Source: a phage
Length of the DNA stretch: 64,000 bases
Strand: one strand, 5' to 3'
Assembly (NCBI GenBank): GCA_024613925.1
Contig: GCA_024613925.1_4713.1
Numbering within the stretch: the stretch's first letter is position 1; the number at the start of each line of letters is the position of its first letter. The translations under genes were made by a program, and so were the position numbers. The notes below the pieces were generated by a model that did no database searches, had not been told where the DNA came from, and saw nothing but the letters and a program-made list of their open reading frames with translations. Of the stretch, positions 9,021 through 63,943 are shown one piece after another.

Positions 9021-9039
9021 GCCTCCCATTACGGGAGGC
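9021..9039 (-). terminator. rho-independent-type terminator (gcctccc-attac-gggaggc followed by U-run on minus strand)
   Basis: 7-bp stem; plus-strand AAAA at 9017..9020 gives UUUU after the hairpin on the minus transcript; 14 nt after stop of 9053..9601. Confidence 0.55.
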
Positions 9040-9052
9040 TCCATCAATCAAC

Positions 9053-9601
9053 TTATTTCACGAGAACAGCGAATTCGAGAACGTAAATAATTTCGTCATC
9101 CATCGGATTTGTTGTGGTATAGCCAGCAAATTGATAACCCATATCCGCGATAAAATCGCTAAGTTTATCAATATCGCCTACATTGATACGATCGTCAACA
9201 GACAGACGACATTTACGGGTTATGCCGCATCCGCGAGGAACGCAAGATAACACAGTTAGGAAATGCGCGATCTGGTTATTGGTTGCGAACTGTGCATAAT
9301 CGTCGTAGCGTTTAAGGTCTTTCATCACAGACTCTACTGTCATACGGCGACCAGGTGACACGTACTCAGAATAAGAATAAGCTGCGATCGTGCGGCGGTC
9401 TTCAGTTAAGTAAGTGTTCCCTTCAGGATGATAACTCTCGATTGTTCCGTCTTCATAGGCGACGGTCACAACAGGTGCGCCGTACTCGTCGCGACCAAAA
9501 TCAATTTTACATTTATCCGAAAGCGGTAGAACTGTACAAGGCTTTGCGTTGTTCTCATCTGGAAGATCGTAACCGCTCATCATTTTCAAAAACATAGACA
9601 T
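9053..9601 (-). CDS. hypothetical protein, paralog of 9688..10221
   Basis: 182 aa; shares N-terminal pattern (NNAKP.T...IA.Y.YS) with the adjacent gene. Confidence 0.55.
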   Translation of the reverse strand: MSMFLKMMSGYDLPDENNAKPCTVLPLSDKCKIDFGRDEYGAPVVTVAYEDGTIESYHPEGNTYLTEDRRTIAAYSYSEYVSPGRRMTVESVMKDLKRYDDYAQFATNNQIAHFLTVLSCVPRGCGITRKCRLSVDDRINVGDIDKLSDFIADMGYQFAGYTTTNPMDDEIIYVLEFAVLVK

Positions 9602-9653
9602 AATAGAACCTCATGATAATAGATAATAGAAATGATAGATAGTACAACAAATT

Positions 9654-9677
9654 GAGGGGGTATTATCCCACCCCCTC
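9654..9677 (-). terminator. GC hairpin (gagggggt-attatccc-accccctc)
   Basis: 8-bp stem between the two paralogs. Confidence 0.45.
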
Positions 9678-9687
9678 GTAGGGATTA

Positions 9688-10221
9688 TTATCTGACGACT
9701 GCGGTGATTTTGCCATCCATGCCGTCGTAATATGCTGTTAACTTACCAGTAAACAACTCTTCTAAAAGATGATTTACATCACTAACAAAGTTAGGATTGC
9801 CCGCTTTTACAAACTCGATATGACGCGTTTGTTTTACATCACGATCGATTAAACGGATTTCCAACAACGCACAAATAAGGCTATCGTTAAGTTTGCCATT
9901 CAAATCCAACGCTTTCCCATACGTCGTAGCACGGACGTCTGCATACATACGGTCAACATCATCCTTCCCAAAACCACAGGAATAGGCATACGTTGCGATG
10001 GTGTTACCATTGTCCATCACATAAACGTTACCACCTGGGTAATCGATAAATCGTTGATCCTTATCACCATGAGCGACGAACTCCAGTGTCGGTCTACCCA
10101 TCGAATCACGGTTGAATTCAATTGTGGTCAAGCGATCTGGTACCACATGCAACGTAAACGGTTTCGCATTGTTACGATCACTGGTATCGCAGTTGCCCAT
10201 TACTTTTACAATAACACTCAT
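9688..10221 (-). CDS. hypothetical protein, paralog of 9053..9601
   Basis: 177 aa; see paralog. Confidence 0.55.
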   Translation of the reverse strand: MSVIVKVMGNCDTSDRNNAKPFTLHVVPDRLTTIEFNRDSMGRPTLEFVAHGDKDQRFIDYPGGNVYVMDNGNTIATYAYSCGFGKDDVDRMYADVRATTYGKALDLNGKLNDSLICALLEIRLIDRDVKQTRHIEFVKAGNPNFVSDVNHLLEELFTGKLTAYYDGMDGKITAVVR

Positions 10222-10330
10222 GTTTTATTCCTTAGTAGTCCTAGTAGTAGTATTGAGGAATTTCACCTCATTAGATAGTCTAATTTAGTAATGTTTTACT
10301 GAGCTATTGTTAACCCCAATACGAGCATAA

Positions 10331-10362
10331 CCCTCCTCCAACCCAACAGGGAAGGAGGAGGG
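10331..10362 (-). terminator. hairpin ccctcctcc / ggaggaggg
   Basis: 9-bp stem, 14-nt loop, 10 nt after stop of 10372..10686. Confidence 0.45.
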
Positions 10363-10371
10363 AATATGCTG

Positions 10372-10686
10372 TTATTCTGTTTTCGGTGTTGAACCGTTCT
10401 TCTTGAAGTCGGATTCGTATTTCACGTTAGAATCGAGAACCTCACGAACGGTTTTATCTGTACAACCACGAGCGATGTACGCATTAAGATCGTCGCGTAA
10501 TTTACGCATCGTTGTTTTATTAGCATCAGAAATATCTGACTTGGTAAGACGGAATGCAATTGCATCACGAACTTTATTCAGCGTTGCTGGGTTATTACGC
10601 TGTTCTGCAAATACCGCTTTGATGAATGTACCGCTATCTTTCGAAGCGATGGCTGCATCAAGAATTTCAATATGCTTTTCAGACAT
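10372..10686 (-). CDS. hypothetical protein
   Basis: 104-aa ORF. Confidence 0.5.
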   Translation of the reverse strand: MSEKHIEILDAAIASKDSGTFIKAVFAEQRNNPATLNKVRDAIAFRLTKSDISDANKTTMRKLRDDLNAYIARGCTDKTVREVLDSNVKYESDFKKNGSTPKTE

Positions 10687-10737
10687 CTTCTTTCCTTTAA
10701 TAAACGATCATCGTCATATTCATTGCGCAGGGTGCTA

Positions 10738-12063
10738 TCACTTCAGTAGCTTAGACGTCGCCATGCTTCGCGCTAACGCAACGTCATACGCATCCATGAT
10801 TGCGTCACCGATAGCGGTATGACGGATCAGCGGAATACCCATGTCTGGATACTCTTTGGTGCCTAAGATGGATACCGGTTTGTCTTGATACGCAGCAATC
10901 ATCGAACGAATATCCTGAACCTGGTTATAACGACAAACTGGCTTAAAGCCCGCTTTACGGAACCAATGCTCTAATTGAGGCCAATCTGTTTCACCGCGAG
11001 CAAGATAATAGAAGGTATCTTTACCGTAGTATTCGGTCATTTTGTCACGAATACTGTTGACGAACGCATTTACTTCGGCGATGGCTTCTTTATAACCCAT
11101 TGCCTTACAATGTTGAAAACAATAGTCGCGCGCTTCCTTTGGTGCTTTGGTTTGCCACCATTCTACTGTTGATTCACTGATACGACCACCGTCAGCGATT
11201 TGACCATGAACGTCAGGGAAGATATCTATACGCGGACCGTTAACAATGGATTCTGGATTAGCCAGATCGAAGAACACGATACCGATTTCCAGCAATACTC
11301 CATTCTTTTCCAGACTAAGGTTTTCAACATCTAAACAAAATGCAGGCTTCTCTACCGCTAACGGCTCGAACGAATGGTTGCTGGTATCCGATTCGGTTTT
11401 AAGTTCGACGACAACCGGATCGGTATCCGTAGGTTTCAGTTCTACTACAGCATCATCGAGTCCCGATAATGAAAAATAGTCTTCGAAGAAATCGGGTATC
11501 GTCATACCATGCAAATTGATATCGCAATCTTCCAACCATTGCTTCAACTGGTGCTCACCGGCATGAATCGCTAAACGGCATGGTCCGGAACGATCATCTA
11601 GCGCTGCATCGATCCAGAAGAAAGCACGTATAAGTAAGTAAGGATTATACTCCGCGATGATTTCTTGGCTAGCCGAGAAATCGTACACCATTAGTTGTAT
11701 TATTCCCTTACGTGTGTTATACGGATCAACTTTCAATCGACGCACTATTTCTTCTACGAATTCCAGCGCACGCGTGTACGATGTGGACCCACCTTGTTCA
11801 TACGAACATATACCCGTCAAAAGTTCCTTATAGGACGCATATGGAACCATAGGCGATAATTTGTACGACAGTTCAGTATTGTAATTATCGCATAATTTCT
11901 TCGGGGCGATAGCATCCTGTATCGCTGTAATAAACGCCGGTCCATCAATATCAAACAACCATCCTTGACGCCGGTATGCAGTGTATCGTAATAACGCACC
12001 GATAACTGCCTGGGGCGGTGTATATTCTTTCCCGTTAATTTCAAACAGTAGTTTGCTCATCAT
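10738..12063 (-). CDS. protein with C-terminal DEDDh-type (DnaQ-like) 3'-5' exonuclease domain
   Basis: 441 aa; C-terminal half has FCLDVENLSL (D-x-E) and HTAIGDAIMDAYD (H-x-A-x-x-DA); N-terminal about 230 aa unassigned. Confidence 0.55.
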   Translation of the reverse strand: MMSKLLFEINGKEYTPPQAVIGALLRYTAYRRQGWLFDIDGPAFITAIQDAIAPKKLCDNYNTELSYKLSPMVPYASYKELLTGICSYEQGGSTSYTRALEFVEEIVRRLKVDPYNTRKGIIQLMVYDFSASQEIIAEYNPYLLIRAFFWIDAALDDRSGPCRLAIHAGEHQLKQWLEDCDINLHGMTIPDFFEDYFSLSGLDDAVVELKPTDTDPVVVELKTESDTSNHSFEPLAVEKPAFCLDVENLSLEKNGVLLEIGIVFFDLANPESIVNGPRIDIFPDVHGQIADGGRISESTVEWWQTKAPKEARDYCFQHCKAMGYKEAIAEVNAFVNSIRDKMTEYYGKDTFYYLARGETDWPQLEHWFRKAGFKPVCRYNQVQDIRSMIAAYQDKPVSILGTKEYPDMGIPLIRHTAIGDAIMDAYDVALARSMATSKLLK

Positions 12064-12075
12064 AACACCTTTTCA

Positions 12076-12411
12076 TTATTCTGGTTTATCTGTTGTCAGG
12101 CCGAGTCCAGCCAATATCACGTAGTCGTACCAAGCTTTTACTTTTGCTTTCGCTTCATCTAAACTATCAGCGTTGATGTGCGGAAACTCCTCGTTGATTG
12201 GGAAAGGTAAATCGCAGTCGTAGCTGGTATAATCCTTCCAGCCTTTCCATTCGATAGTTAGAGAACCAAAAACGGTCTCAGCGACAACATGGTTATAGCG
12301 ACAGTTTTCACATGGCGCGCGCTCTTCCGACCAAACAAGCTCATGCTGCGCTAAAAGTTGTTGTACGACCGATAATGGCTGCTCTTCATTAAGTTCGATA
12401 CTGTCTATCAT
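12076..12411 (-). CDS. hypothetical protein
   Basis: 111-aa ORF. Confidence 0.5.
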   Translation of the reverse strand: MIDSIELNEEQPLSVVQQLLAQHELVWSEERAPCENCRYNHVVAETVFGSLTIEWKGWKDYTSYDCDLPFPINEEFPHINADSLDEAKAKVKAWYDYVILAGLGLTTDKPE

Positions 12412-13004
12412 CGCATACCCTCCTTTTCCTTATCGTAATCGCTGCAAATATTGACAAACGCCGTATTATCAGACAGCCTGCTGACCATCTGACGTATTGC
12501 GGCCAATGGTTCAAGTTTAGGATTGATTGATTCACCGGTCAACGCGCTTATTGCTCGTGTGATCTCAACCAAATTAACGTTCGGGTCTTTGTCATCAATA
12601 ATGAGCAGATTCTTCGCTGGTTTCTGACGACGTTTGATGATCAACAAATACGTGATGAGGTTCTCACGCCAAGCATCAGAATCCAGATTACGTATTACGG
12701 TTAACGCGCGACGTTCTTCCGCCCATGATGGTTTCTCACGGATAACGGGCATGTAAGATAATTGCTCAGCAAGCCCTTTCAAACTGACACGGTTGGTGCC
12801 ACCAGGATGCTCACTAATCCGCAACATCTCGGTTAACAAACGGACGTAGGCGGCCGTTGTCGAAACACCCCGCAGCGGCAGGAACAAATTATGTCCTGGA
12901 ACCCCATCATGACTCAGCGGTGCGATATATGCCATGAATCGCCGAATATCATCGTCGGTCTGTTCTCCAGCAACGAACTTAAACGCTTCACGTAAAACGC
13001 TCAC
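12408..13004 (-). CDS. hypothetical protein
   Basis: 198-aa ORF. Confidence 0.5.
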   Translation of the reverse strand: MSVLREAFKFVAGEQTDDDIRRFMAYIAPLSHDGVPGHNLFLPLRGVSTTAAYVRLLTEMLRISEHPGGTNRVSLKGLAEQLSYMPVIREKPSWAEERRALTVIRNLDSDAWRENLITYLLIIKRRQKPAKNLLIIDDKDPNVNLVEITRAISALTGESINPKLEPLAAIRQMVSRLSDNTAFVNICSDYDKEKEGMR

Positions 13005-14129: not shown

Positions 14130-14144
14130 ACCGAGACCCCTTTG

Positions 14145-15331: not shown

Positions 15332-15343
15332 AATAGCCTCGTG

Positions 15344-15371: not shown

Positions 15372-15379
15372 CCTCCATG

Positions 15380-16417: not shown

Positions 16418-16466
16418 GTCCTATACGAACATGAAAAACCGTTAATTTTTACCATAGCCGCGTGTG

Positions 16467-16742: not shown

Positions 16743-16779
16743 CTTTATCTCCTTAACAGGTGCTGGTAACGCAGCATAA

Positions 16780-16799
16780 GCCCTCCCCGAAGGGAGGGC
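16780..16799 (-). terminator. hairpin gccctccc-cgaa-gggagggc
   Basis: 8-bp stem, 4-nt loop, 10 nt after stop of 16809..17366. Confidence 0.5.
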
Positions 16800-18706: not shown

Positions 18707-18740
18707 CTCCTCCCCAGGAAAGGTGTGGGGAGGAGTTTTT
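18707..18740 (+). terminator. hairpin cctcctcccc/ggggaggag followed by TTTTT, upstream of the helicase gene
   Basis: Stem arms 18707..18716 and 18727..18735, T5 at 18736..18740; terminator-like but located 5' of a plus-strand gene (possible attenuator). Confidence 0.35.
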
Positions 18741-18770
18741 ATCATACATTCTATTAAATCGAGCGCGATT

Positions 18771-20852: not shown

Positions 20853-20859
20853 TTAAGAA

Positions 20860-20883
20860 GCTCTGCCTGATGTCAGGCAGAGC
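20860..20883 (+). terminator. hairpin ctctgcctg / caggcagag after helicase gene
   Basis: 9-10-bp stem 8 nt after stop, followed by TTTATG. Confidence 0.5.
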
Positions 20884-20912
20884 TTTATGCTGCGTTCGCT
20901 GCAAAATCGTAT

Positions 20913-22410: not shown

Positions 22411-22431
22411 AAAAAAAAATAGTTAGCACAT

Positions 22432-22464
22432 CTTCCTCCCTACCCATAACGGGCGGGGAGGAAG
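22432..22464. terminator. hairpin cttcctccc / gggaggaag between convergent genes
   Basis: 9-bp stem; preceded by an A11 run (22409..22419) immediately after the DUF285 stop. Confidence 0.5.
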
Positions 22465-22481
22465 GTTTATGTCAATTTAAT

Positions 22482-27988: not shown

Positions 27989-28102
27989 AATCTCATTTCC
28001 TCTTCTACGTAGAAATAGATGACATGTTGGATATACGTTGCCTTTGCATATATTGCTTTATTTCCGTCAGAAATAACGGAAAATAAAAACAACGACATAA
28101 TT

Positions 28103-28132
28103 CCCTCCCACCTCCACATGGGAGAGGGAGGG
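28103..28132 (-). terminator. hairpin ccctccc / gggaggg (imperfect)
   Basis: After stop of 28146..28508. Confidence 0.4.
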
Positions 28133-28881: not shown

Positions 28882-28960
28882 ACCAGGGATCCTCTTTTAA
28901 GTGTTCACATTCTAGTGTTAAGCAGTTAAAATAAACCGTCCCTTTAATCAGCATAAACAT

Positions 28961-28989
28961 CCTCCTCCCACCACATGGGCAGGAGGAGG
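28961..28989 (-). terminator. hairpin cctcctcc / ggaggagg
   Basis: 8-bp stem, 13-nt loop, after stop of 29001..29411. Confidence 0.45.
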
Positions 28990-29000
28990 CGTAATATGCA

Positions 29001-29411
29001 TCAGAAAGGAGGACGATCTTTAAATTCTAGCAATGTATCTTCGAAGCAAGCGATAAGTTCAGACTGCAATTCGGTACGGCCTTGTTCACCGAAGAGTTCC
29101 AGCAACATTAACCCCCGAGCGGTCTTCGTAGCAACCTCTTCGCAGATGCGGAGATCGCGAACTTCATCATCGCCGACATCTTTACGTAACTGCGCTGCAA
29201 TGGGCTTAAGATTGCCGTTTTCATCGTGTTCGTCACGAAATGCATCATAAGCCGCATCGATGTTCGCGATCCGTGTCAATCCTTCAGAATCCCGCCAGTC
29301 TCGATATAATCCAAGCAGACGGTTATGATTCTTCGTTTTGACGTTCGGTGCTGGAAGGTTGCGCAACAGATGTGGTGTAATCATTGCTATCACGCTATCC
29401 GAATGATCCAT
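29001..29411 (-). CDS. hypothetical protein
   Basis: 136-aa ORF. Confidence 0.5.
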   Translation of the reverse strand: MDHSDSVIAMITPHLLRNLPAPNVKTKNHNRLLGLYRDWRDSEGLTRIANIDAAYDAFRDEHDENGNLKPIAAQLRKDVGDDEVRDLRICEEVATKTARGLMLLELFGEQGRTELQSELIACFEDTLLEFKDRPPF

Positions 29412-31622: not shown

Positions 31623-31976
31623 ATGTCTAACACGCCCCTGAACGACTTTCTTAAGACAAACCCCGATGACCTCATCCACGATCTTGATTTCAGGAACGTT
31701 GTTGAGATGCATCTGGAATATTTCAAAAATGCCGGACTGGTCTCTACGATAGACATACCACCCGAACGTGCCTACGAATTCGATGGTAACTTTTATGGAT
31801 TGTGCCGTGTTCTGCTCGGTGAGGGCAGTGAACCAATGCACTGGATAACCATGAGACTCAATGGCTATCGTGACCCCACGGAATACACCGCCGATGTTCT
31901 AACCATGAAGATTGTCGATACAAGCGCAATCAACACATTAAAACAACAGTACCGCACAATCCACTACAGCGCTTAA
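31623..31976 (+). CDS. hypothetical protein
   Basis: 117 aa from ATG 31623 (GAGGT upstream); track lists a TTG start at 31611. Confidence 0.5.
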   Translation: MSNTPLNDFLKTNPDDLIHDLDFRNVVEMHLEYFKNAGLVSTIDIPPERAYEFDGNFYGLCRVLLGEGSEPMHWITMRLNGYRDPTEYTADVLTMKIVDTSAINTLKQQYRTIHYSA

Positions 31977-31981
31977 GATAA

Positions 31982-32010
31982 CCCTCCCACAGCGTAAAGC
32001 GTAGGGAGGG
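31982..32010. terminator. hairpin ccctccc / gggaggg between convergent genes
   Basis: 7-bp stem, 15-nt loop. Confidence 0.5.
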
Positions 32011-32041
32011 CATTTATGCCGTCGTTCGATGACTTAATACA

Positions 32042-41235: not shown

Positions 41236-41289
41236 TTCATAGAGTGGTGGAAATTCGTAGAAAGTTACAAAAATAAAAAAGAATGGGCA

Positions 41290-41319
41290 GCCTCTCCCCA
41301 CCCGAAGGTAGGGAGAGGC
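41290..41319 (-). terminator. hairpin gcctctccc / gggagaggc
   Basis: 9-bp stem, 12-nt loop, 12 nt after stop of 41331..41816. Confidence 0.5.
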
Positions 41320-42712: not shown

Positions 42713-42754
42713 GATTGTCCTCGTTTTCAATTTTAAGATTGCATGCGGCATAAA

Positions 42755-42779
42755 CCCTCCCCGCCTTATGCAGGGAGGG
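42755..42779 (-). terminator. hairpin ccctccc / gggaggg
   Basis: 7-bp stem after stop of 42795..43433. Confidence 0.5.
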
Positions 42780-42794
42780 TAGCCATTAAATGGA

Positions 42795-45675: not shown

Positions 45676-45717
45676 GGGGTATCTCCTACAAATGAAAAAG
45701 AACGTTAGGACGTATAA

Positions 45718-45741
45718 GGGAGGGAGGTTGCCCTCCCTCCC
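45718..45741 (-). terminator. hairpin gggagggagg-ttgc-cctccctccc
   Basis: 10-bp perfect stem after stop of 45768..47663. Confidence 0.55.
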
Positions 45742-47917: not shown

Positions 47918-49012
47918 ATGTTTCGTGTTTTAAATAACCTCCCGCGAACATCATCGGGTGTGCAACCCGTCCCTCAGAAAGACTATCTAATACGCGAAGT
48001 TCAAAGAAACCTACAGACAATCCAGAACCACTATCAAGGTTTTACCTTCGCGGTTCAGAGCGATCACATCCTTGCGTTGCTGCTCGCACAGCTCCCTATG
48101 AGATACGACATCTCAGTACAAACTTACTACGACATGATTCTCGATCTTACCCCAGAATTGGGTAATCGTGTCAAGTTGACAACATCAAGATACGCGGGTA
48201 AGTTATTCGACGGTGCTTTCTATCCGGGATTGCACGAAGCTATTATCGCAACCGGTGAAAGTCGTCTTATTTCACGTGACATTCTTGACAACTGGCGTAA
48301 TTGGTCGCCGGTTAGAATCGTGACGCACCCGTACGCAAATCTTCGTTACATTCCTCTTCACCGAAAGCCGGTTGAAGAAGGACGAGGTTTTGCGGTCATT
48401 ATGGTTGATGTACCTTTATTAGCGCTACAGTATCGAATGTGGTCTTTGGTCATGGGTCATAACGTCGACGGTAAATGGGTGGTTAAAGAACCGGTTACAA
48501 GCTTCCTTGCGAGTTTTCCGTTGGTTAACGCATTATACTCACACAACGATGTTGTTATACGCAATCGTTGTTTATGGGTATCTCCGGCTAAGAATCCACT
48601 CAAATCACCCATTTACGTTAACGACCTTGATAACGTATTCAGCCAAGTCGTTCTGTCCGTACAGCATCATTTATTACGCAGAAGACGAAGCTACACCGAC
48701 ATGCTTAAACAGATACCGAGTTTATACGGGGATCAGTACCAAGCAACCCGAATGGGTTACACCGTCGATCTTCGACAAACACGATGGGCAAGGGATCTGG
48801 GTTGTCTGTCATTATGGCAACAACTCGTCACATTGCAAAACGTATCTGAAAGCGTCGGGTTCAGCAGTCAAGTCGATAATGACCTGTACCGTGCTGCCGA
48901 CCGGAGTCTAAAAGAAGGTAACTGGGAATCCTCTCCGTTACCTGGTGATTTAAGACGTGAAGTTATCGCACAGGTTGCCGACCTCTTAAAAATTCTTCCT
49001 GCTGGTGCATAA
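47918..49012 (+). CDS. hypothetical protein
   Basis: 364-aa ORF; TTTATTAC about 20 nt upstream of ATG. Confidence 0.55.
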   Translation: MFRVLNNLPRTSSGVQPVPQKDYLIREVQRNLQTIQNHYQGFTFAVQSDHILALLLAQLPMRYDISVQTYYDMILDLTPELGNRVKLTTSRYAGKLFDGAFYPGLHEAIIATGESRLISRDILDNWRNWSPVRIVTHPYANLRYIPLHRKPVEEGRGFAVIMVDVPLLALQYRMWSLVMGHNVDGKWVVKEPVTSFLASFPLVNALYSHNDVVIRNRCLWVSPAKNPLKSPIYVNDLDNVFSQVVLSVQHHLLRRRRSYTDMLKQIPSLYGDQYQATRMGYTVDLRQTRWARDLGCLSLWQQLVTLQNVSESVGFSSQVDNDLYRAADRSLKEGNWESSPLPGDLRREVIAQVADLLKILPAGA

Positions 49013-49031
49013 TCACCTCCCTCTTCCCTCG

Positions 49032-49063
49032 CATCCTCCCAACCCGTAAGGGAAGGGAGGATG
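49032..49063. terminator. hairpin catcctccc / gggaggatg between convergent genes
   Basis: 9-bp stem, 14-nt loop. Confidence 0.5.
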
Positions 49064-49078
49064 GGGTGGTGGATTATG

Positions 49079-51232
49079 TTACTCTGCGGTTTCTCGCTTC
49101 GGTAAATAACTTGCTGCGATGTCTTGGGCTAACAATGTATTGTTTTTATTCGAGATGAAAATACCGTAACTTTCCATTAACGCGTAATACGAACGAACGA
49201 GCGTAGAGATCAATCGACGAATATCCATACCTTGAATAAAGATATCAGGAAGCCCGGAGGCTTCGATCACCGGTAATGGTATCGTTAAGTTGCTTATCGT
49301 TTTCTTATCGTTACGTACAATCCAATCACGGAAACGTTGTTGTAACCCTTTATCCTCCCAGGAATCAATCCAATCGTTAAGAAGCGTTTTGTTCTTCGTC
49401 GCCAACGGCACACGAACCCCAACATAGGGTGGTTCCTGGCAATGGCCGTACGATTGAGCAAACACCTCTTCCCACATATCGTAAGACTGTTTCGTTACCG
49501 CAACATGTGGTTTCACTTTAACACGTGTTAAGAAATCAGGATCACCACGTTTCATGGACTCAACGATTTCGTTTTCTAACGAGATAATATCGTCAAGAAC
49601 CAATCGAATGCTGATCTTCTCATTACGTAACAGCTTATCCATGATACCGCACATCATGCGTTCAACACGTTTGACGATCATTTTTGGTGCTGACGCATCA
49701 CGCATAACCGGACCTTTCAATTCCAGCTTCGGTGGATTGATAGGAACCCCTTCACGCATGGTCATGTAACCGTAATAGTTTTTACCCATCGAGGTTAACG
49801 ACAGAATCAAGAACATATATTCGTTCTTCATTTCCATCACGTACATATGCTCTTTCGCTACACCGATATTACCAGAACACATCGCCATCAGATGAACCGT
49901 AATCTGCGTAACCAGATAGATAAGCGTGTTTGCTAAGCGCGTCGAAACTGGATTGATCTCCATATTTCCAAATCGCCACTGAACCCACTCCTGGCAGGTA
50001 AACACCGTCGAGTCGGTATCAGACAACACGCCCACTTCACGGATTGCCGACGGAAAAGCATAAACGCCAGCCGGTTGGTTCTCGGTACGCCAGAACGCCA
50101 TAATCAAGTCAGCATAACTTTGGATGCGTTGCAGCATTAATTTTGTTGTTGCTGCGGTAAGACGATAACCAAGCTCATTTCCTTTTTCTAGCGCTACGTA
50201 AATCGCTTCCCCATTCAAGAACTCCGTGCATTGTGCTGTAATCCAAGCGACCGTGTTGTTATCCATGGAAGCAATAATGGCTTTAGCCTCTTCCATCGTT
50301 TCAACAGGTTCGGATGCCAGCTCACACAACGAGTCAAGAAAATCTCGAACAAATTCAGGATTAAGCTCACGTAACGAGTACAGGTTATTGCTGTACATGT
50401 AGCAGGCGCGTTCCAACGGCGTTAAACCGGTAATTAACTCCCGGATAGTCAGTTCTTTCTCTGGGTCGAAAGTATACCGATGTAAGCATTTCGATACGTT
50501 AGCCCAAACCTCTTCCGGCGTAGGGTAATGCAGTTTGTATTTTACCATTACCTGCTCAATGGCTTTACGATCGCTGTTACGGACGATGCTTACGATGTTT
50601 TCAATTGCGATATCACAATCGTAATAATGGAAATTGCCCGCAAGGAAGCGTTCGTTGTTCGCATTGGCTGAACCTGAAGCACAGCGACATGTTGTCGTTA
50701 GACTCGGATGCGCAATCGGATTATAAAAAGGGTTGAACTTGGACGCCTGGGTTCCTGACAAACTGTTGTTGTCTAACTTGGTGTTGGTTTGTCGTTTATC
50801 GTGTAGCTCCGCTTCGTCTTTACGTCCGTGTGCTTGCGCTATCGACATTTGTTTCTTTTGTTTCTTACGCAACTTACCGTTTTCAACCGCAAAGTCGCTT
50901 AGCACACTGGAACGTGTTTCACGTGGATAACAGTTAGCCCACACCGGCGTGATAATTAAATTATTTTCTTTAATATCGTTGAAGTATTGGCTGAACTTGA
51001 TGACTTCTTTTTCTCGATTTCCTTCGGTACGCTGCGTTAGTACAAGGCAGTCGGGATCAACCATCCCGTATTTTCCACCAGGACGAACCGTTTCAAGAAC
51101 AAACTGCAACGCTTCCTGCTGAGATATCCCACGCATGCGCATTAAGAACAGGGTATAATCCTGTACCGCTTCTTTGGTCATATCCAACGTACGACCATAT
51201 CCGTTTTCATCGTAAAAGAACGGATTTTCCAT
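49079..51232 (-). CDS. polymerase-like protein (family B DNA polymerase-type motifs B and C), no exonuclease domain
   Basis: 717 aa; TKLMLQRIQSY (cf. phi29 KLMLNSLYG) followed by GVLSDTDS (cf. YGDTDS). GGAGGA upstream of ATG. Function is tentative. Confidence 0.4.
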   Translation of the reverse strand: MENPFFYDENGYGRTLDMTKEAVQDYTLFLMRMRGISQQEALQFVLETVRPGGKYGMVDPDCLVLTQRTEGNREKEVIKFSQYFNDIKENNLIITPVWANCYPRETRSSVLSDFAVENGKLRKKQKKQMSIAQAHGRKDEAELHDKRQTNTKLDNNSLSGTQASKFNPFYNPIAHPSLTTTCRCASGSANANNERFLAGNFHYYDCDIAIENIVSIVRNSDRKAIEQVMVKYKLHYPTPEEVWANVSKCLHRYTFDPEKELTIRELITGLTPLERACYMYSNNLYSLRELNPEFVRDFLDSLCELASEPVETMEEAKAIIASMDNNTVAWITAQCTEFLNGEAIYVALEKGNELGYRLTAATTKLMLQRIQSYADLIMAFWRTENQPAGVYAFPSAIREVGVLSDTDSTVFTCQEWVQWRFGNMEINPVSTRLANTLIYLVTQITVHLMAMCSGNIGVAKEHMYVMEMKNEYMFLILSLTSMGKNYYGYMTMREGVPINPPKLELKGPVMRDASAPKMIVKRVERMMCGIMDKLLRNEKISIRLVLDDIISLENEIVESMKRGDPDFLTRVKVKPHVAVTKQSYDMWEEVFAQSYGHCQEPPYVGVRVPLATKNKTLLNDWIDSWEDKGLQQRFRDWIVRNDKKTISNLTIPLPVIEASGLPDIFIQGMDIRRLISTLVRSYYALMESYGIFISNKNNTLLAQDIAASYLPKRETAE

Positions 51233-51532
51233 AAATCCTCCAAAAGTTATTTAGTCTGTCTACATCATCTCGTATATCTGTTAAAAAAGAAGGACGGCAT
51301 AAAAAAGAACCGATCCAGCCGAAGCCAGATCGGTTAAAAAAGGATAATAACTGACAGAAAGATATCGATGATGTTCGTGAAACAAGATCTTCTCTCGTGC
51401 ACAATGATGCTAGATCAGAGGGAGGTTGTAACACGAGAGGCGATTCGCCAAAGAAGGAATAAAAAACACGAATCTATCTTATTTCACTGATGGCACTAAC
51501 CACTCAAAATATATAGTACTGTATGTAAAAGT

Positions 51533-55330: not shown

Positions 55331-55353
55331 GCTTTCTCCTACGCGGCATAAAA

Positions 55354-55373
55354 GCCTGCCCCGAAGGACAGGC
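55354..55373 (-). terminator. hairpin gcctg...caggc (short, GAAG loop region)
   Basis: After stop of 55384..55584; weaker than the others. Confidence 0.3.
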
Positions 55374-55383
55374 TCGATAGAAC

Positions 55384-57509: not shown

Positions 57510-58036
57510 TTAACAACAGCTTCCTCCCTCGGTGTTTTCGAGGGAGGTATTTGCCGTTTGAACACTTTCAGCACGTTCGCAAAATCAGCAGCAATAATAC
57601 AGGCCGAGGCTGATAGCTTATTGCTGAAAATGAGATCGTCCGGTAAACAATCGAACTGAATACCATATTGCGTCTTTGTCTCATCAACGATCAGTGACGG
57701 TGTCGATCCTGTCTTCGCGATGTCGGTGATATACAAACGTAAAAATAATTCACCGTCTTCGCTATCCATAAAACGATAGGCGTTACCAGAAAACGCAACA
57801 CTTGGCGTAACGATAAATTGAACACGATCGTCGGTCGGATGGATATTTAACCAACGTTCGATATCACTGCTACTCACATTCCGCATATTTACTACGGTAA
57901 AAGCAAATAGCGTATCGTGATGTTTGGAATAATGCAGCACATACGCCGCACCTTTCTTTTTGTGAATCCCTTCAATGTATTCTATTGTCGTATAGCCGGA
58001 TTTATATAGCTTTACTTGCGGTTTATCACTCATCAT
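57500..58036 (-). CDS. hypothetical protein
   Basis: Track ORF 57500..58117; start moved to Met28 (ATGA overlap with upstream stop). Confidence 0.5.
   Translation of the reverse strand: MMSDKPQVKLYKSGYTTIEYIEGIHKKKGAAYVLHYSKHHDTLFAFTVVNMRNVSSSDIERWLNIHPTDDRVQFIVTPSVAFSGNAYRFMDSEDGELFLRLYITDIAKTGSTPSLIVDETKTQYGIQFDCLPDDLIFSNKLSASACIIAADFANVLKVFKRQIPPSKTPREEAVVNQK
57523..57547 (+). terminator. hairpin cctccctcg-gtgtttt-cgagggagg after 56667..57509
   Basis: 9-bp stem 14 nt after stop; overlaps 3' end of convergent minus gene. Confidence 0.5.
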
Positions 58037-60572: not shown

Positions 60573-60873
60573 GATAGAAATCCTTATTGGTTGCGATTAA
60601 CATATTAAGTTTAAAAGAGGTTATGTTTTACGTCATATTCGATGTATGTATTAATGAATTAGAATACTTGTATTTTTAAGTGAGTATAATAATAGTAATA
60701 AACCTAAATTAATCTCTATTGCTTATTGTTCTATCTAAAGATAGTAAACAGATATAATGCTCCCCACCTCCCCATTCTCCCAAGTAATACTGGCCTACCG
60801 GCCCTCTCCTTTTTAAGGGAGAGAGTAAGCATTCAGTATTGCTCAAATGAATAAGCAAAACAGTATAAACTTA

Positions 60874-60897
60874 CCGTCTCGAGATAACTCGAGACGG
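60874..60897 (-). terminator. hairpin ccgtctcgag-ataa-ctcgagacgg followed by U-rich tract on minus strand
   Basis: 10-bp perfect stem, 4-nt loop, about 30 nt after stop of 60927..61280. Confidence 0.6.
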
Positions 60898-60926
60898 CGT
60901 AGTAGTATCTGTTTATCTCTTTTATG

Positions 60927-61280
60927 CTAACAGCCTATTTCTGCATGAACCTTTAACGATTCGAATACATCTTCCTTCTTTATCATCGTCTTGTATAAAC
61001 GTGATTGAGCAATGATCTTTATCCATTGTTGCGGATCGCGTAAATTCACATTTTCAAAACGGGGTGGGGTATTAGCTCCGTCGAGTCGGATATACCCTAA
61101 GAGCAATCCTTCATGGTCTCCTCGACGGATTTCGATATGCGGTTTGAGGAAGACACGATTGTCTGGTGGATACCAGCTTACGGTGTAGTAATGGTTTCCT
61201 GAAACAACGAATTCGTGAACGGTTTTTGTCTCGTCATCAATGACCGCATTTACGCTGGGAATCATTAATTTTTGAAGCAT
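60927..61280 (-). CDS. hypothetical protein
   Basis: 117-aa ORF. Confidence 0.5.
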   Translation of the reverse strand: MLQKLMIPSVNAVIDDETKTVHEFVVSGNHYYTVSWYPPDNRVFLKPHIEIRRGDHEGLLLGYIRLDGANTPPRFENVNLRDPQQWIKIIAQSRLYKTMIKKEDVFESLKVHAEIGC

Positions 61281-61864
61281 GGGACATAAACCTCCATCAA
61301 CATCGCATAAAGCGCACCAAGCCCATGCAGGACTTGGTTAGGTGCAAAGGTCGGAGTGTAACATACTTGTTCGGTCGGTGCTTGTTGACGTAAGTCTAAC
61401 GGATCTCCGTTAATAAGCATCTGCAGGAGATCAGCATCATCTTGCAATGTGTCTTCATCGATATACGCATCAACACAAAGCAGTCGGTGTAACTGTTCTG
61501 GTTTAATTGAAATACCGACAACCATGCAGTTGTTGTAAGTGGCGTTGTCCAGAAAGAAGTGAATGACGCCCGCTTGAGGATCGCCACCGTAGTGAAGCCA
61601 ACGCGTAAAACCGGCCGACATCATCCATAGCGGGTTGTGTTGTAACGCGCTGACGACGCGGGTCTCGAAATCCAAACCAAACTTCTGGAAGATTGCACCC
61701 ATCTGGAAACGATCTTCATCGAGACGGTAGCGGAATATACAGGCATCCGAACCGGTTGAATTATCATACACCGAAAGATACCCACGATGGATTTCCACGG
61801 TAACATTGTTGTCGTCAAGCGTAGCGCTCGCAACGCCGTTAGAAAAGGTTGGAACAAAGCTCAT
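61265..61864 (-). CDS. hypothetical protein
   Basis: 199-aa ORF. Confidence 0.55.
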   Translation of the reverse strand: MSFVPTFSNGVASATLDDNNVTVEIHRGYLSVYDNSTGSDACIFRYRLDEDRFQMGAIFQKFGLDFETRVVSALQHNPLWMMSAGFTRWLHYGGDPQAGVIHFFLDNATYNNCMVVGISIKPEQLHRLLCVDAYIDEDTLQDDADLLQMLINGDPLDLRQQAPTEQVCYTPTFAPNQVLHGLGALYAMLMEVYVPCFKN

Positions 61865-62412
61865 CTTGTAATCCTTAATTTACCTGAATGAATTATCGTT
61901 GATGGGTCCACGACGCGACCGTATTTCGCGTTACGTAATACACGATGCCCAAAGAAGTCAGCGGTTTCCAAAACAACCGTATAACAACCCAGCTGGTGTT
62001 GGTGTCCCCAAAACCGTTCAATGGGGATCCAGCAGGGCGACATACCTTTGTGTCGCCAATCCGTAACACAGCCGAATTCAGCAAACTGTTCAGTAAACCA
62101 CTCGTCAATGTCGGTATCCGTAAAGAGAAACACGTGGTTTTTAACCAGATAAGCGAACCCAGGATAAAAAAGCTGAGGGTCATCCGGGTCACGTAGATAA
62201 ATACGAAGTTTGTCTAGCGTACCCTCGACAACGATTGTATCGGGTAATCCTGGCGGCGTGAACCGAAGTTGGAAGTTATCCTCGTTTGCCGAGGCGTTAA
62301 CCAAATACCCCAGTTGAAGGGGTCGATGCAGTTCGAAAAGGTTAAACGTTAATGCATATTCGATATACTCTAATCCTATATTCATGTCTGGCCTATGTGG
62401 TATGGTCGGCAC
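61861..62412 (-). CDS. hypothetical protein
   Basis: 183-aa ORF. Confidence 0.55.
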   Translation of the reverse strand: MPTIPHRPDMNIGLEYIEYALTFNLFELHRPLQLGYLVNASANEDNFQLRFTPPGLPDTIVVEGTLDKLRIYLRDPDDPQLFYPGFAYLVKNHVFLFTDTDIDEWFTEQFAEFGCVTDWRHKGMSPCWIPIERFWGHQHQLGCYTVVLETADFFGHRVLRNAKYGRVVDPSTIIHSGKLRITR

Positions 62413-62517
62413 TGCATTGCCTTCCGCGAGTGTAATCAGGAAGGTAATGTAGGTTTATTTTAATCTCCATTTCGCGATGATATGACAGTCTTTATTACGT
62501 TTACCATCTGAGGGAGC

Positions 62518-63762
62518 ATGCTCATGTCTTCTATTTTACAGGTGTTTAATGCGCATGCGGAAGGCATTGACATCGACGAGTATTTTGTTAATCAGGTTAT
62601 CCGTTACGCGACGCGCTTCCGTACGCAAGACCAAGAACATATGCGTTTTTTCGGTGGGGTTCTGTTAGGTGTACAAAAAATCCGATTCACAACAAGACAT
62701 AACGATATGTGGTTTTCCGACGTCTTGATGATGGATGAAGAAAGCTTACGGCGCGATTTGAGTAAACTGCCCTTTTACAATACGCAGACCAACCGTGTCG
62801 CCTCAAACGCCTTTAACCTAAGTTGCTGTTGGTTGCTTTATGCGATCTTCCACAGCAAACAAATCAAAAAAGAAAAGGTTCGTGAAGCCGGGATGCTTGC
62901 AGCAATGCAAGTCCTCCATTATAAATTTATTTGTGGTCTGGTAGCACGACGTTATCCTTATAACGCCGATCCGGCTATCGCCATTAAGGCGTACGATGAG
63001 TTAACACTCAAATCAGGCATCAAGCGCATGAATAGCTGGAATGAGTACATCGACGAACGCTGTAATGCCATCATTGCGCGTAATAGTACACATTTCAGTC
63101 GTTGGTCAACCCTGGAACCTGATAGCGTCGCCGAACGTTTTGTACGTGATGTGAATACCGGAATCCGTAAGGTTATCAACCGTATCACCGATACGTACTA
63201 TGCGATGTATGAAGAGGGTAAGAAGATAGGCACGTCCTCTCAAACTGTAGAGTTAGACGATGGTCTCGCTGTCCGCGATATTAAACGCAACGAAACCACT
63301 TATCGTCAATATCTGTTCGAAATCGCTTATGACCGAACAAGTTTCGTTAAACGTGAACTCATGGTCGTCATACTCGACGTGCATCATACGACCAATCTTT
63401 TATCCCTTGAGCGAGCGTTAAGCTATATCAGCGCTAACGTAGAACGACCGACAAGAGACGGAAAACAGGTCTCTCAGATGTTGCGGCTTGTAATGGAGCA
63501 TGCTATCGAGTATATCATCTTGAATAAGGTCGATATGCGCGATCTTACGTTCTTATTCTACATGCGTAACGTGTACACGTCTAACCGTACCAGCAACCCG
63601 AAACTGTTGGAACTGCGTAAAATTGGCTCTGAAGTCATTAAGAAAGCAACCAACGCGAGAAACGACGCTGAAGCTGCGGCGACGCGCACCGGTGTCTTTC
63701 TGTATATCCTGCTTCGTGTGTTTAGCCGTAACTATTACGTTCGACGTGCGATGTCACGTTAA
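62518..63762 (+). CDS. hypothetical protein
   Basis: 414-aa ORF; TTTATTAC about 20 nt upstream of ATG. Confidence 0.55.
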   Translation: MLMSSILQVFNAHAEGIDIDEYFVNQVIRYATRFRTQDQEHMRFFGGVLLGVQKIRFTTRHNDMWFSDVLMMDEESLRRDLSKLPFYNTQTNRVASNAFNLSCCWLLYAIFHSKQIKKEKVREAGMLAAMQVLHYKFICGLVARRYPYNADPAIAIKAYDELTLKSGIKRMNSWNEYIDERCNAIIARNSTHFSRWSTLEPDSVAERFVRDVNTGIRKVINRITDTYYAMYEEGKKIGTSSQTVELDDGLAVRDIKRNETTYRQYLFEIAYDRTSFVKRELMVVILDVHHTTNLLSLERALSYISANVERPTRDGKQVSQMLRLVMEHAIEYIILNKVDMRDLTFLFYMRNVYTSNRTSNPKLLELRKIGSEVIKKATNARNDAEAAATRTGVFLYILLRVFSRNYYVRRAMSR

Positions 63763-63914
63763 CAATGTAACGGTAAAACTTTACTGACGTTGGTTATTAT
63801 TTGAAGCATAGGGCTTCACCCAGGAGTACCATCCCTTTAAGTCGTTTGTCCTCTCCTGGTTAACTGTCGTTCTCTCACAGTGCTCGACAGACCAAAAATG
63901 CTCAGGCCTCATAG

Positions 63915-63943
63915 CCTCCTCTGGGAATGGAACCCAGAGGAGG
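63915..63943. terminator. hairpin cctcctctggg-aatggaa-cccagaggagg
   Basis: 11-bp perfect stem about 150 nt after stop of 62518..63762. Confidence 0.45.

What the first reader, a model, noticed from the sequence alone, without database searches (positions are those of the whole stretch)
9021..63943. Family of gene-end hairpins with polypyrimidine 5' arm and polypurine 3' arm (CCUCC...GGAGG)
At least 14 intergenic hairpins share a C/U-rich 5' arm and G/A-rich 3' arm (for example 10331, 16780, 18707, 22432, 28103, 28961, 31982, 41290, 42755, 45718, 49032, 57523, 63915). This arm arrangement reads the same on either strand, so they could act bidirectionally. Most lack a U-tract, suggesting factor- or phage-RNAP-specific termination or RNA processing. 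The 3' arm resembles a Shine-Dalgarno sequence.
Basis: seen in the sequence. Interest (0 to 1): 0.45.

Follow-up and report, generated by a model that had tools for sequence, protein, structure and literature searches.

The report
Jumbo-phage transcription terminator hairpin family
The CCUCC...GGAGG hairpins are real and far from chance, but they are this Goslar-like E. coli jumbo phage's copies of a transcription-terminator motif (hairpin plus TTATGCYG) already mapped by experiment in the related phages phiKZ and 201phi2-1, so the finding is sound but largely known.

Summary
The window is 97% identical to Escherichia phage Goslar, a nucleus-forming jumbo phage with its own RNA polymerases. 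All 14 listed hairpins exist and fold at -17.5 to -34.9 kcal/mol. CCTCC(3-30 nt)GGAGG occurs 18 times against 0.3 expected. One locus (45718) has the opposite arm order. The stems start a median of 13 nt after stop codons.

On the strand of the gene that ends upstream, 13 of 24 flanks carry TATG within 12 nt (background 3%), with consensus TTATGCYG. This matches the published phiKZ terminator consensus BCCYCCCCHWWDGGGRRGGBYTTATKYYGT, found at 61 mapped RNA 3' ends, and motif A of 201phi2-1. A covariance model built only from phiKZ copies recovers 12 of the window's loci and about 30 loci across Goslar. Three published 201phi2-1 3' ends lie 7-8 nt after such stems, and those terminators worked in uninfected host cells.

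Verdict: intrinsic-type terminators, some bidirectional, in which a short UUAUGCY stretch stands in for the U-tract. The Shine-Dalgarno idea is rejected. It is a new member of a known kind. Two points remain open: why the arm polarity is fixed, and why the flank contains TATG, the core of the phage polymerase's late promoter.

The parts
247..289 (-).
   Evidence: -27 kcal/mol. Stem starts 17 nt after the stop of the 307-939(-) ORF.
9010..9040 (-). AGCCTCCC gtaat GGGAGGCT + TTTATGCTGC.
   Evidence: The only site matching the strict phiKZ IUPAC consensus at <=3 mismatches; 0 expected. -17.5 kcal/mol. 12 nt after a stop codon. Goslar annotates a putative terminator here. Flank stays TTATGCYG in Goslar, with T->C.
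10325..10369 (.). Two-tier hairpin CCCTCCTCC..CCC tgtt GGG..GGAGGAGGG with TATGC on both flanks.
   Evidence: -26.6 kcal/mol; 9 nt after stop on the - strand; hit by the phiKZ model on both strands.
16772..16799 (-). GCCCTCCC uucg GGGAGGGC + TTATGCTG, the archetype copy.
   Evidence: phiKZ-only model E=2.7e-7. -18.8 kcal/mol. 9 nt after a stop. The next gene's ATG is about 38 nt after the stem with its own AAGGAG. In Goslar the outer pair becomes G.U only in the - strand RNA.
18707..18747 (+). CTCCTCCCCA..TGGGGAGGAG + TTTTTATCATAC in a divergent intergenic region, upstream of the helicase-like + gene.
   Evidence: Goslar annotates a + strand terminator; -20.6 kcal/mol. No gene ends upstream, so this is a 5'-UTR-type position, as reported for 42 terminators across the six phages of the phiKZ study.
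20858..20893 (+). Mixed-composition hairpin AAGCTCTGCCTGA tgtc ..AGCTT + TATGCTGCG; a member by flank, not by CCTCC arms.
   Evidence: -23.7 kcal/mol; 5 nt after stop. Annotated terminator in Goslar. The TATG is lost in Goslar, TTTATG->TTCATG.
22420..22473 (.). CTTCCTCCC..GGGAGGAAG between convergent genes; + flank GTTTATGTC, - flank followed by a T-run further on.
   Evidence: (-26.1 kcal/mol).
28093..28132 (-). CCCTCCCTCTCC caug UGGAGGUGGGAGGG + AATTATGTCG.
   Evidence: 13 nt after stop; -21.5 kcal/mol; E=0.011. Goslar's 31-aa gp167 is called from the ATG of this flank.
28949..29001 (-). CCTCCTCCTGCCC augug GUGGGAGGAGG + ATGTTTATGCTG; the + flank also has AATATGC.
   Evidence: 11 nt after stop; -23.6 kcal/mol.
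31970..32021 (.). CCCTCCC..GGGAGGG between convergent genes 31611-31976(+) and 32042-33322(-); + flank CATTTATGCCG, - flank TTATCT.
   Evidence: (-17.9 kcal/mol).
41275..41319 (-). GCCTCTCCCTACC uucg GGUGGGGAGAGGC followed by a T-rich tail (no TTATG).
   Evidence: -34.9 kcal/mol, z -7.4. Compared with Goslar it shows a compensatory T-A->C-G change, plus a change that stays G.U in the - strand RNA.
42746..42780 (-). ACCCTCCCTGC auaag GCGGGGAGGGT + TTATGCCG.
   Evidence: 14 nt after stop; -22.5 kcal/mol. The flank is identical to the validated 201phi2-1 terminator at 179,552.
45709..45741 (-). Reverse-polarity copy GGGAGGGAGG gcaa CCTCCCTCCC + TTATACG, between the nuclear shell gene (chmA) and the nvRNAP beta' gene.
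   Evidence: -23.8 kcal/mol. 100% identical in Goslar.
49010..49080 (.). Long two-tier hairpin (CATCCTCCC..CCC guaa GGG..GGGAGGATG inside an outer stem) between convergent genes; ATTATG after the outer stem on both sides.
   Evidence: (-43.4 kcal/mol for the whole intergenic region).
51295..51335 (-). Mixed hairpin AACCGATCTGGC uucg GCTGGATCGGTT + CTTTTTTATGCCG upstream of the DNA polymerase gene.
   Evidence: annotated terminator in Goslar; -17.4 kcal/mol.
55344..55374 (-). GCCTGTCC uucg GGGCAGGC + TTTTATGCCG.
   Evidence: annotated terminator; 8 nt after stop.
57523..57556 (+). CCTCCCTCG guguuuu CGAGGGAGG + TATTTGCCG, 13 nt after the stop of the + gene 56667-57509 and inside the 3' end of the convergent - ORF.
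   Evidence: (-18.8 kcal/mol).
63903..63955 (.). CCTCCTCTGGG..CCCAGAGGAGG with TATG directly on both flanks, downstream of the + gene 62518-63762.
   Evidence: -24.3 kcal/mol.

Best explanation
These hairpins are the transcription terminators of a Goslar-like nucleus-forming jumbo phage (Chimalliviridae). Each unit is a GC-rich RNA stem-loop with a C/U-rich 5' arm and a G/A-rich 3' arm, often extended into a two-tier stem. It starts about 13 nt after a stop codon and is followed within 0-6 nt by TTATGCYG.

Inferred mechanism. The stem forms in the nascent RNA behind the polymerase. The last 7-8 nt of RNA (UUUAUGCY, mostly pyrimidine) form a weak RNA:DNA hybrid that does the job of the usual U-tract. 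The transcript is released 7-8 nt after the stem. No ribosome or Rho is needed, which fits transcription inside a ribosome-free phage nucleus.

The arms read alike on both strands. Copies between convergent genes, or with TATG on both flanks, can therefore stop transcription from both directions.

What is shown here: the anatomy, its non-randomness, its position, its sequence kinship with phiKZ and 201phi2-1 terminators, and conservation of pairing. What is inferred: that RNA ends there in this phage, and the hybrid-weakness step.
For: - Identity of the phage: 97% identical to Goslar, with chmA, PhuZ and RNAP beta-subunit genes annotated in the matching Goslar region.
- Non-randomness.
- Position and flank: median 13 nt after stops. 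TATG within 12 nt in 13 of 24 gene-end flanks (background 3%), against 4 of 20 in the other orientation. 9 of the window's 12 TTATGCYG directly follow a hairpin.
- Published relatives: phiKZ consensus BCCYCCCCHWWDGGGRRGGBYTTATKYYGT at 61 terminators mapped by ONT-cappable-seq (PMC10914365). 201phi2-1 motif A, n=59 of 132 TTS (PMC11512511).
- Tests run here: the strict consensus hits 9010-9039, 0 expected. A 38-nt window unit finds 16-19 places per phiKZ-like genome by BLAST. A covariance model built only from 13 phiKZ copies puts 19 of its top 22 window hits on 12 of these loci, best E=2.7e-7. It finds about 30 mostly intergenic loci across Goslar, many already annotated as putative terminators.
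- The 201phi2-1 TTS coordinates 183,876, 179,552 and 189,851 fall 7-8 nt after such stems. One has the flank TTTATGCCGC, identical to window copies. Eight 201phi2-1 terminators, these three among them, worked in a terminator trap in uninfected host cells.
- Pairing is maintained across 83 distinct copies: 92.6% paired, all 8 pairs with double changes, covariation 0.539 against 0.233 in shuffles (0/500), slid controls <=0.13.
- Window versus Goslar: one compensatory T-A->C-G, and two changes that stay G.U only in the coding-strand RNA.
Against: - No 3'-end data exist for Goslar or this phage. The Goslar RNA-seq paper reports none.
- ONT 3' ends cannot separate termination from exonuclease trimming back to a hairpin.
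- About 10 of 24 gene-end flanks lack TTAT/TATG, and Goslar has lost the TATG at the 20858 copy. The flank is therefore not obligatory.
- 18707 is not downstream of any gene.
- The covariation alignment is fitted to the model and includes both strands of some hairpins.
- The model finds no copies in the first 50 kb of the chimallivirus Ea35-70 and only 2-3 in SPN3US. The motif is therefore not a universal requirement of these polymerases.
Confidence: 0.8

Rival explanations
1. Combined stop/restart units. The hairpin terminates, and the TATG just after it is a late-type promoter of the non-virion RNA polymerase (TATG with G as +1). Each unit would then insulate one gene from the next and restart transcription. 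Alternatively, the polymerase's TATG-reading pocket makes it pause there, and this substitutes for a U-tract. This adds to the terminator reading rather than replacing it.
For: - The phiKZ nvRNAP needs 5'-TATG-3' ending at +1 (PMC4666361).
- The beta-like subunit GP123 binds TATG on the non-template strand (PMC12809450).
- TATG is enriched about 18-fold in gene-end flanks and also occurs on the far flank in 4 of 20 cases.
- Several downstream genes have no room for any other promoter. For example, 16780 sits in a 66-nt gap, which would give a 33-nt leader from the G.
- Window copies match the published phiKZ/201phi2-1 flank TTATKYYG, so the flank is shared across distant hosts.
Against: - TATG alone is not sufficient for promoter activity.
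- The best-studied late promoter, P119L, has no upstream hairpin.
- Published late-promoter logos are described as short, weakly conserved motifs, not hairpin-linked.
- Intergenic regions without hairpins show no consistent TATG.
- No TSS data exist for this phage.
- The flank's conservation extends past TATG (CYG), which the promoter motif does not require.
Confidence: 0.25
2. The hairpins are not terminators. They would be 3'-end protective or processing structures: long read-through transcripts are cut or trimmed back by 3' exonucleases to a stable stem, and this creates the apparent 3' ends.
For: - The stems are very stable, -17 to -35 kcal/mol.
- 3'-end mapping in relatives cannot tell termination from trimming.
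- There is no long U-tract.
Against: - Mapped 3' ends in 201phi2-1 lie 7-8 nt beyond the stem, as in intrinsic termination, not at the stem base.
- Cloned units reduced downstream reporter expression in uninfected cells, as well as or better than lambda T0.
- A conserved downstream sequence is not expected for a mere exonuclease block.
Confidence: 0.1
3. Translation elements. The GGAGG arm would serve as a Shine-Dalgarno site, masked or unmasked, for a downstream ORF. Or the CCUCC arm would mimic the 16S anti-SD.
For: - GGAGG sits 3-6 nt before the ATG of TTATG.
- Gene callers start Goslar gp167 and gp183 at that ATG.
Against: - ORFs from that ATG are 3-43 codons long with no conservation. The longer ones run antisense to, or in frame into, known genes.
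- Real downstream genes start 17-130 nt away with their own SD.
- The SD-like arm is fully paired in a very stable stem.
- The same motif occurs in Pseudomonas phages at mapped RNA 3' ends.
Confidence: 0.03
4. DNA-level elements, such as cruciforms, protein-binding palindromes or REP-like repeats, unrelated to RNA.
For: - They are perfect inverted repeats.
- They are dispersed genome-wide.
Against: - Two window/Goslar differences keep pairing only as G.U in the coding-strand RNA and would be mismatches in DNA.
- 12 of 83 copies have U.G at one stem position.
- The flank motif tracks the direction of the gene upstream.
- Placement right after stop codons fits RNA function.
Confidence: 0.03

Closest known systems
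Conserved phiKZ terminator motif, 5'-BCCYCCCCHWWDGGGRRGGBYTTATKYYGT-3' (Putzeys et al. 2024, Microlife, PMC10914365)
   Same: - C/U-rich 5' arm, G/A-rich 3' arm and a tetraloop-size loop.
- The flank TTAT(G/T)YYG.
- Position after genes.
- Many copies per genome.
- Host is a chimallivirus with its own RNAPs.
- A model built from phiKZ copies alone finds the window copies.
- One window copy matches the strict consensus.
   Different: - The host is E. coli, not Pseudomonas.
- Most window copies have longer, two-tier stems and larger loops, so they score lower.
- The flank is more uniform (TTATGCYG).
- One reverse-polarity copy and several mixed-composition stems carry the same flank.
- There is no 3'-end mapping for this phage.
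201phi2-1 terminator motifs A and A/B (Microb Biotechnol 2024, PMC11512511)
   Same: - The same hairpin plus TTTATG flank.
- The elongated stems of the A/B combination resemble the window's two-tier stems.
- The published TTS at 179,552 has the flank TTTATGCCGC, identical to window 42755 and 55352.
- Bidirectional sites occur between convergent genes.
   Different: - Activity and 3' ends were measured there and not here.
- The sequences of motifs B-E could not be compared because the figures and tables are not held.
Canonical bacterial Rho-independent terminator (GC-rich hairpin + U-tract)
   Same: - A GC-rich stem.
- RNA end expected 7-9 nt after the stem.
- Works without added factors in host cells, as shown in the relative.
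   Different: - A U-tract (at least 5 T in 8) is present in only 7 of 24 flanks.
- A specific mixed sequence (UUAUGCY) is conserved instead.
- The arm polarity bias is strong: about 14 pyrimidine-first against 3-4 purine-first.
phiKZ nvRNAP late promoter core 5'-T(-3)ATG(+1)-3' (Yakunina 2015, PMC4666361; IUCrJ 2026, PMC12809450)
   Same: The same four bases lie directly after most hairpins, on the coding strand.
   Different: - Promoter activity needs further undefined context.
- The model promoter P119L has no hairpin.
- Whether the flank TATG initiates or pauses transcription is untested.

Membership tests
phiKZ/201phi2-1-type chimallivirus terminator motif | GC-rich stem-loop with CCYCCCC-like 5' arm and GGGRRGG-like 3' arm | tested here: met
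   13 CCTCC..GGAGG hairpin loci against 0.3 matches expected. Strict consensus hit at 9010-9039.
phiKZ/201phi2-1-type chimallivirus terminator motif | 3' flank TTAT(K)YYG within a few nt of the stem | tested here: met
   TTAT in 14 and TATG in 13 of 24 gene-end flanks (background 5% and 3%). 9 of 12 TTATGCYG in the window follow a hairpin. Absent from about 10 flanks.
phiKZ/201phi2-1-type chimallivirus terminator motif | Recognised by a sequence+structure model trained only on phiKZ copies | tested here: met
   Model R1 (13 phiKZ copies): 19 of its top 22 window hits lie on 12 of the hairpin loci. Best E=2.7e-7; most are weak (E 0.01-3) because of the longer stems. About 30 loci in Goslar.
phiKZ/201phi2-1-type chimallivirus terminator motif | Located just downstream of genes or between convergent genes | tested here: met
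   Stop-to-stem distance is 5-31 nt in 20 of 24 cases, median 13. Exceptions are 18707 (divergent region) and 57523 (inside a convergent ORF's end).
phiKZ/201phi2-1-type chimallivirus terminator motif | Genome is a chimallivirus encoding its own multisubunit RNAPs | tested here: met
   97% nt identity to Goslar. Nuclear shell, PhuZ and RNAP beta-subunit genes are annotated in the matching Goslar region.
phiKZ/201phi2-1-type chimallivirus terminator motif | RNA 3' ends map about 7-8 nt after the stem during infection | not testable with these tools
   No 3'-end data for Goslar-like phages in the held literature. In 201phi2-1 the published TTS coordinates fall 7-8 nt after the stems.
phiKZ/201phi2-1-type chimallivirus terminator motif | Reduces downstream expression in a terminator trap | not testable with these tools
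   Shown only for eight 201phi2-1 terminators.
Canonical Rho-independent terminator | U-tract (at least 5 U in 8) directly after the stem | tested here: not met
   Met by only 7 of 24 gene-end flanks. The consensus scan of 9000-28999 flags only 28961 and the purine-first hairpin 9654.
Shine-Dalgarno / ribosome-binding site | GGAGG 5-10 nt upstream of the start codon of a real, conserved ORF, accessible to the ribosome | tested here: not met
   Downstream genes start 17-130 nt away with their own SD. Flank-ATG ORFs are 3-43 codons and unconserved. The arm is paired in stems of -17 to -35 kcal/mol.
nvRNAP late promoter (TATG, +1 = G) | TATG on the non-template strand at the transcription start | tested here: inconclusive
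   TATG is present after 13 of 24 gene-end stems. No TSS data exist, TATG is not sufficient, and P119L lacks a hairpin.
Any Rfam RNA family | Match at the gathering score | tested here: not met
   0 matches in the whole window.

The most novel reading that the evidence does not exclude
The TTATG that follows the hairpins is read by the same non-template-strand TATG pocket of the phage's non-virion RNA polymerase that defines its late promoters. The unit would then work in one of two ways. Either sequence-specific pausing at TATG replaces the U-tract, giving a polymerase-tuned terminator conserved from Pseudomonas to E. coli phages. Or the unit is a coupled stop-and-restart insulator, with the next transcript starting at the G, 2-3 nt before the previous one ends. 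The strict pyrimidine-first arm polarity would be part of the same recognition.
Probability: 0.25. Interest if true: 0.6.

Novelty: new member of a known kind. Interest (0 to 1): 0.3.

Why it matters
- It extends a terminator motif defined experimentally in two Pseudomonas jumbo phages to an E. coli nucleus-forming phage. The hairpin polarity and the TTATGCYG flank are therefore tied to the phage lineage, and probably to its polymerases, not to the host.
- It gives a ready map of likely transcript ends: at least 18 units in this window and about 30 in Goslar. This helps in designing knock-downs, reporters and synthetic insulators in the genetically tractable E. coli/Goslar system.
- It flags annotation errors, namely tiny or over-long ORFs called from the flank ATG.
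- It raises a testable question: why does a terminator flank contain the polymerase's own promoter core?

Tried and rejected
- The strict published IUPAC consensus finds only one window site. It fixes a 7-bp stem and a 4-nt loop, so I used a covariance model instead.
- The first two MAFFT alignments of phiKZ copies (A1, A2) were out of structural register and were dropped. A3 uses equal-geometry copies with a hand-written structure.
- A perfect-stem scanner and a seed-and-extend scanner missed the two-tier hairpins. They were replaced by RNALfold.
- Supplementary TSS/TTS tables of the phiKZ and 201phi2-1 papers are not held, and Ceyssens 2014 is not held. I therefore could not test whether mapped TSSs coincide with the flank TATG.
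- The Goslar RNA-seq paper gives no transcript ends.
- The Shine-Dalgarno and mini-ORF idea is rejected.
- Rfam finds nothing for the hairpins.
- TATG is depleted on the + strand, 153 against 247 expected. I considered this as evidence of promoter avoidance but set it aside. On the coding strand it reads CATA, which codon constraints alone could deplete, and I ran no codon-aware control.
- Loci fetched in parallel calls (L003, L005-L007) were not readable from Python, so genome-wide work on them relied on the model search only.

Full report
**What the window is.** Bases 28000-48000 match Escherichia phage vB_EcoM_Goslar at 97.2% identity over their full length, and match nothing else in the phage collection. 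Goslar is a 237-kb nucleus-forming jumbo phage. The matching region carries the nuclear shell protein, tubulin PhuZ, DNA polymerase, helicases and several 'RNA polymerase beta subunit' genes. Most genes in the window are on the - strand. The relevant RNA for most hairpins is therefore the reverse complement of the sequence as given.

- Every listed position holds a stem-loop. Folded as RNA on the strand of the upstream gene, they reach -17.5 to -34.9 kcal/mol, with z-scores of -2.7 to -7.4.
- CCTCC followed within 3-30 nt by GGAGG occurs 18 times (overlapping), at 13 hairpin loci. The mean in 100 dinucleotide shuffles is 0.3. The opposite order occurs at one locus.
- An unbiased RNALfold census finds 18-23 compact strong hairpins per strand against 3.4 +/- 1.9 in shuffles. 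Pyrimidine-first hairpins number 9-10 against 0.06, and purine-first 2-4 against 0.19.
- After allowing for small spurious ORFs in my rough gene calls, almost all strong hairpins are intergenic.

- 45718 has the reverse polarity.
- 18707 lies between divergent genes.
- 57523 lies within the end of a convergent ORF.
- Further members exist at 256-289, 20858, 51308 and 55353.

On the coding strand the stems are followed by a conserved sequence.
- TTATGCYG occurs 12 times in the window, and 9 of these directly follow a GC-rich hairpin. Three of those hairpins lack CCTCC arms.
- Across 22 curated hairpins, the flank on the strand of the gene that ends upstream has TATG within 12 nt in 13 of 24 cases and TTAT in 14 of 24. 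Background rates are 3% and 5%. The opposite flank has TATG in 4 of 20 cases.
- Only 7 of 24 flanks have a U-tract.
- Stems begin 5-31 nt after the stop codon in 20 of 24 cases, median 13.

The exceptions are the copies between convergent genes (22432, 31982, 49032 and probably 63915, whose partner gene lies beyond the window end). Several of these, and a few tandem sites (10331, 28961), carry TATG(C) on both sides.

**What it is.** The literature held here describes this element in relatives.
- ONT-cappable-seq of phiKZ mapped transcript 3' ends. It found 61 terminators sharing 5'-BCCYCCCCHWWDGGGRRGGBYTTATKYYGT-3', a stem-loop followed by TTAT (PMC10914365).
- In 201phi2-1, 59 of 132 mapped termination sites carry a motif that 'strongly resembles' it. 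Combination with a second motif lengthens the stem. Fifteen sites are bidirectional. Eight terminators reduced downstream reporter expression in uninfected P. chlororaphis, and four did so better than lambda T0 (PMC11512511).

**Kinship tests run here.**
- The strict consensus hits window 9010-9039, with 0 expected.
- A 38-nt unit from 16780 finds phiKZ-like genomes at 16-19 places each by BLAST. The best phiKZ place, just after the major head gene, reads GGCCCTCCC TTCG GGGAGGGC TTTATGTTG. The window copy reads GCCCTCCC TTCG GGGAGGGC TTATGCTG.
- A covariance model built from 13 phiKZ copies only places 19 of its top 22 window hits on 12 of the hairpin loci, best E=2.7e-7. Most scores are weak because the window stems are longer.
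- The same model finds 47 hits at about 30 loci across the whole Goslar genome. Nearly all lie in intergenic gaps, and many coincide with features annotated as putative terminators.
- In 201phi2-1, the published termination coordinates 183,876, 179,552 and 189,851 fall 7-8 nt after such stems, right after TTTATGAC, TTTATGCC and TTATATGC. The second flank, TTTATGCCGC, is identical to window copies at 42755 and 55352.

**Structure conservation.**
- The model-fitted alignment has 83 distinct copies from the window, the rest of Goslar and phiKZ.
  - 92.6% of cells are paired.
  - All 8 pairs show changes on both sides (141 cells).
  - Covariation is 0.539 against 0.233 in shuffles (0/500), and at most 0.13 when partners are slid.
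- These are paralogous copies in a model-fitted alignment, so this shows pairing is maintained, not independent evolution.
- Between the window and Goslar, differences fall mainly in loops and flanks. 41290 has a compensatory T-A to C-G change. At 41290 and 16780, single changes keep a G.U pair only in the coding-strand RNA. This argues for an RNA-level rather than a DNA-level structure.
- The flank stays TTATGCYG at 9021, 55352, 22432 and 28103, but is lost at 20858 in Goslar.

**Mechanism.** The best reading is intrinsic-type termination.
- The stem forms in the nascent RNA.
- The last 7-8 nt (UUUAUGCY), mostly pyrimidines, give a weak RNA:DNA hybrid in place of a U-tract. This step is my inference from general knowledge of hybrid stability.
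- The RNA is released 7-8 nt past the stem, as seen in 201phi2-1.
- This needs no ribosome or Rho. It fits a phage that transcribes inside a ribosome-free compartment (established for Chimalliviridae; inference for this phage).
- Relatives work in uninfected cells.

**Rejected and open points.**
- The Shine-Dalgarno idea fails.
  - Real downstream genes start 17-130 nt away with their own SD.
  - The ATG inside TTATG opens ORFs of 3-43 codons without conservation.
  - The GGAGG is locked in the stem.
  - The resemblance does mislead gene callers: Goslar gp167 and the start of gp183 are called from that ATG.
- The flank contains TATG, which is the necessary core of phiKZ late promoters, with G as +1 (PMC4666361). 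[quoted passage not shown]
  - Whether the flank TATG restarts transcription, or makes the polymerase pause, is untested.
  - The model late promoter P119L has no hairpin, and TATG alone is insufficient.
  - I found no paper in the held library that discusses this overlap.
- The reason for the pyrimidine-first polarity is unknown. Counts are about 14 against 3-4 in the window and about 14 against 3 in the first 50 kb of phiKZ.
- The motif is not universal in the family. The model finds about 9 loci in 50 kb of 201phi2-1, 2-3 in SPN3US and none in Ea35-70.

**Verdict.** This is a real, strongly non-random family. It is the Goslar-lineage version of a known chimallivirus terminator motif, so it is a new member of a known kind. 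Interest is modest (0.3). The TATG overlap and the arm polarity are the parts worth an experiment.

Noticed in passing
window 47743, 41896, 36617, 18618 (- strand): A conserved motif of about 24 nt, tTTCAcGGcTATATTACyTAgGTGa, lies upstream of four genes: the nuclear shell gene (chmA), 41331-41816, the gp175-like gene and 17868-18554. It is probably an early (virion RNAP) promoter class. A TATATTAC also follows the phiKZ terminator at 120602.
   Followed up: partly
window 44042-44367 (-), junction at 44043/44046: There is a group I intron directly after the nvRNAP beta' ORF (RF00028, 44.6 bits, E=8e-10, below the gathering score of 50). Goslar's HNH endonuclease ORF (1,065 nt, L001 30044-31108) is precisely absent here. 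The window phage therefore carries an ORF-less version of the intron.
   Followed up: partly
window 28096-28098 and 42749-42751 (- strand ATGs): Goslar's 31-aa gp167, and the annotated start of gp183, begin at the ATG of the terminator flank TTATG, with the GGGAGGG arm acting as a pseudo-SD. These are likely annotation artefacts. gp183 has an in-frame ATG with its own SD 13 codons downstream.
   Followed up: partly
window 15343-15372: A purine-first 13-bp hairpin (GAAGGTGGATGGG ugug CCCATCCACCTTC, -25 kcal/mol) begins 6 nt after the start codon of the 15101-15364(-) ORF, within its first codons, only a few nt downstream of the stop of the upstream gene. It does not belong to the terminator family and may affect translation initiation.
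   Followed up: no
window 9654-9677 (-): A purine-first hairpin (GAGGGGGUGGG..CCCCCUC) is followed by AAUUUGUUGU. This is a canonical U-tract terminator 10 nt after a stop, and Goslar annotates it as such. Both terminator styles therefore coexist.
   Followed up: partly
whole window: TATG occurs 153 times on the + strand against 247 +/- 15 expected. GCATAA is enriched (33 against 18.5). The GCATAA excess is explained by the terminator flanks. The TATG deficit is unexplained: it could be codon bias of the mostly - strand genes or avoidance of antisense promoter cores.
   Followed up: no
L010 (Erwinia phage Ea35-70, 1-50000), L011 (Salmonella phage SPN3US, 1-50000): The phiKZ-derived terminator model finds no copy in 50 kb of Ea35-70 and only 2-3 in SPN3US. 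It finds about 9 in 50 kb of 201phi2-1. The motif is lineage-restricted within Chimalliviridae.
   Followed up: partly
window 60785-60840 and 60873-60898, 62409-62454: Further strong hairpins lie in two long intergenic regions: CTCTCTCCC uuaaaaa GGAGAGGG nested in a longer stem, a 12-bp CCGTCTCGAG palindrome, and CATTGCCTTCC..GGAAGGTAATG in the divergent gap before 62518(+). None has the TTATGCYG flank, and their role is unknown.
   Followed up: no
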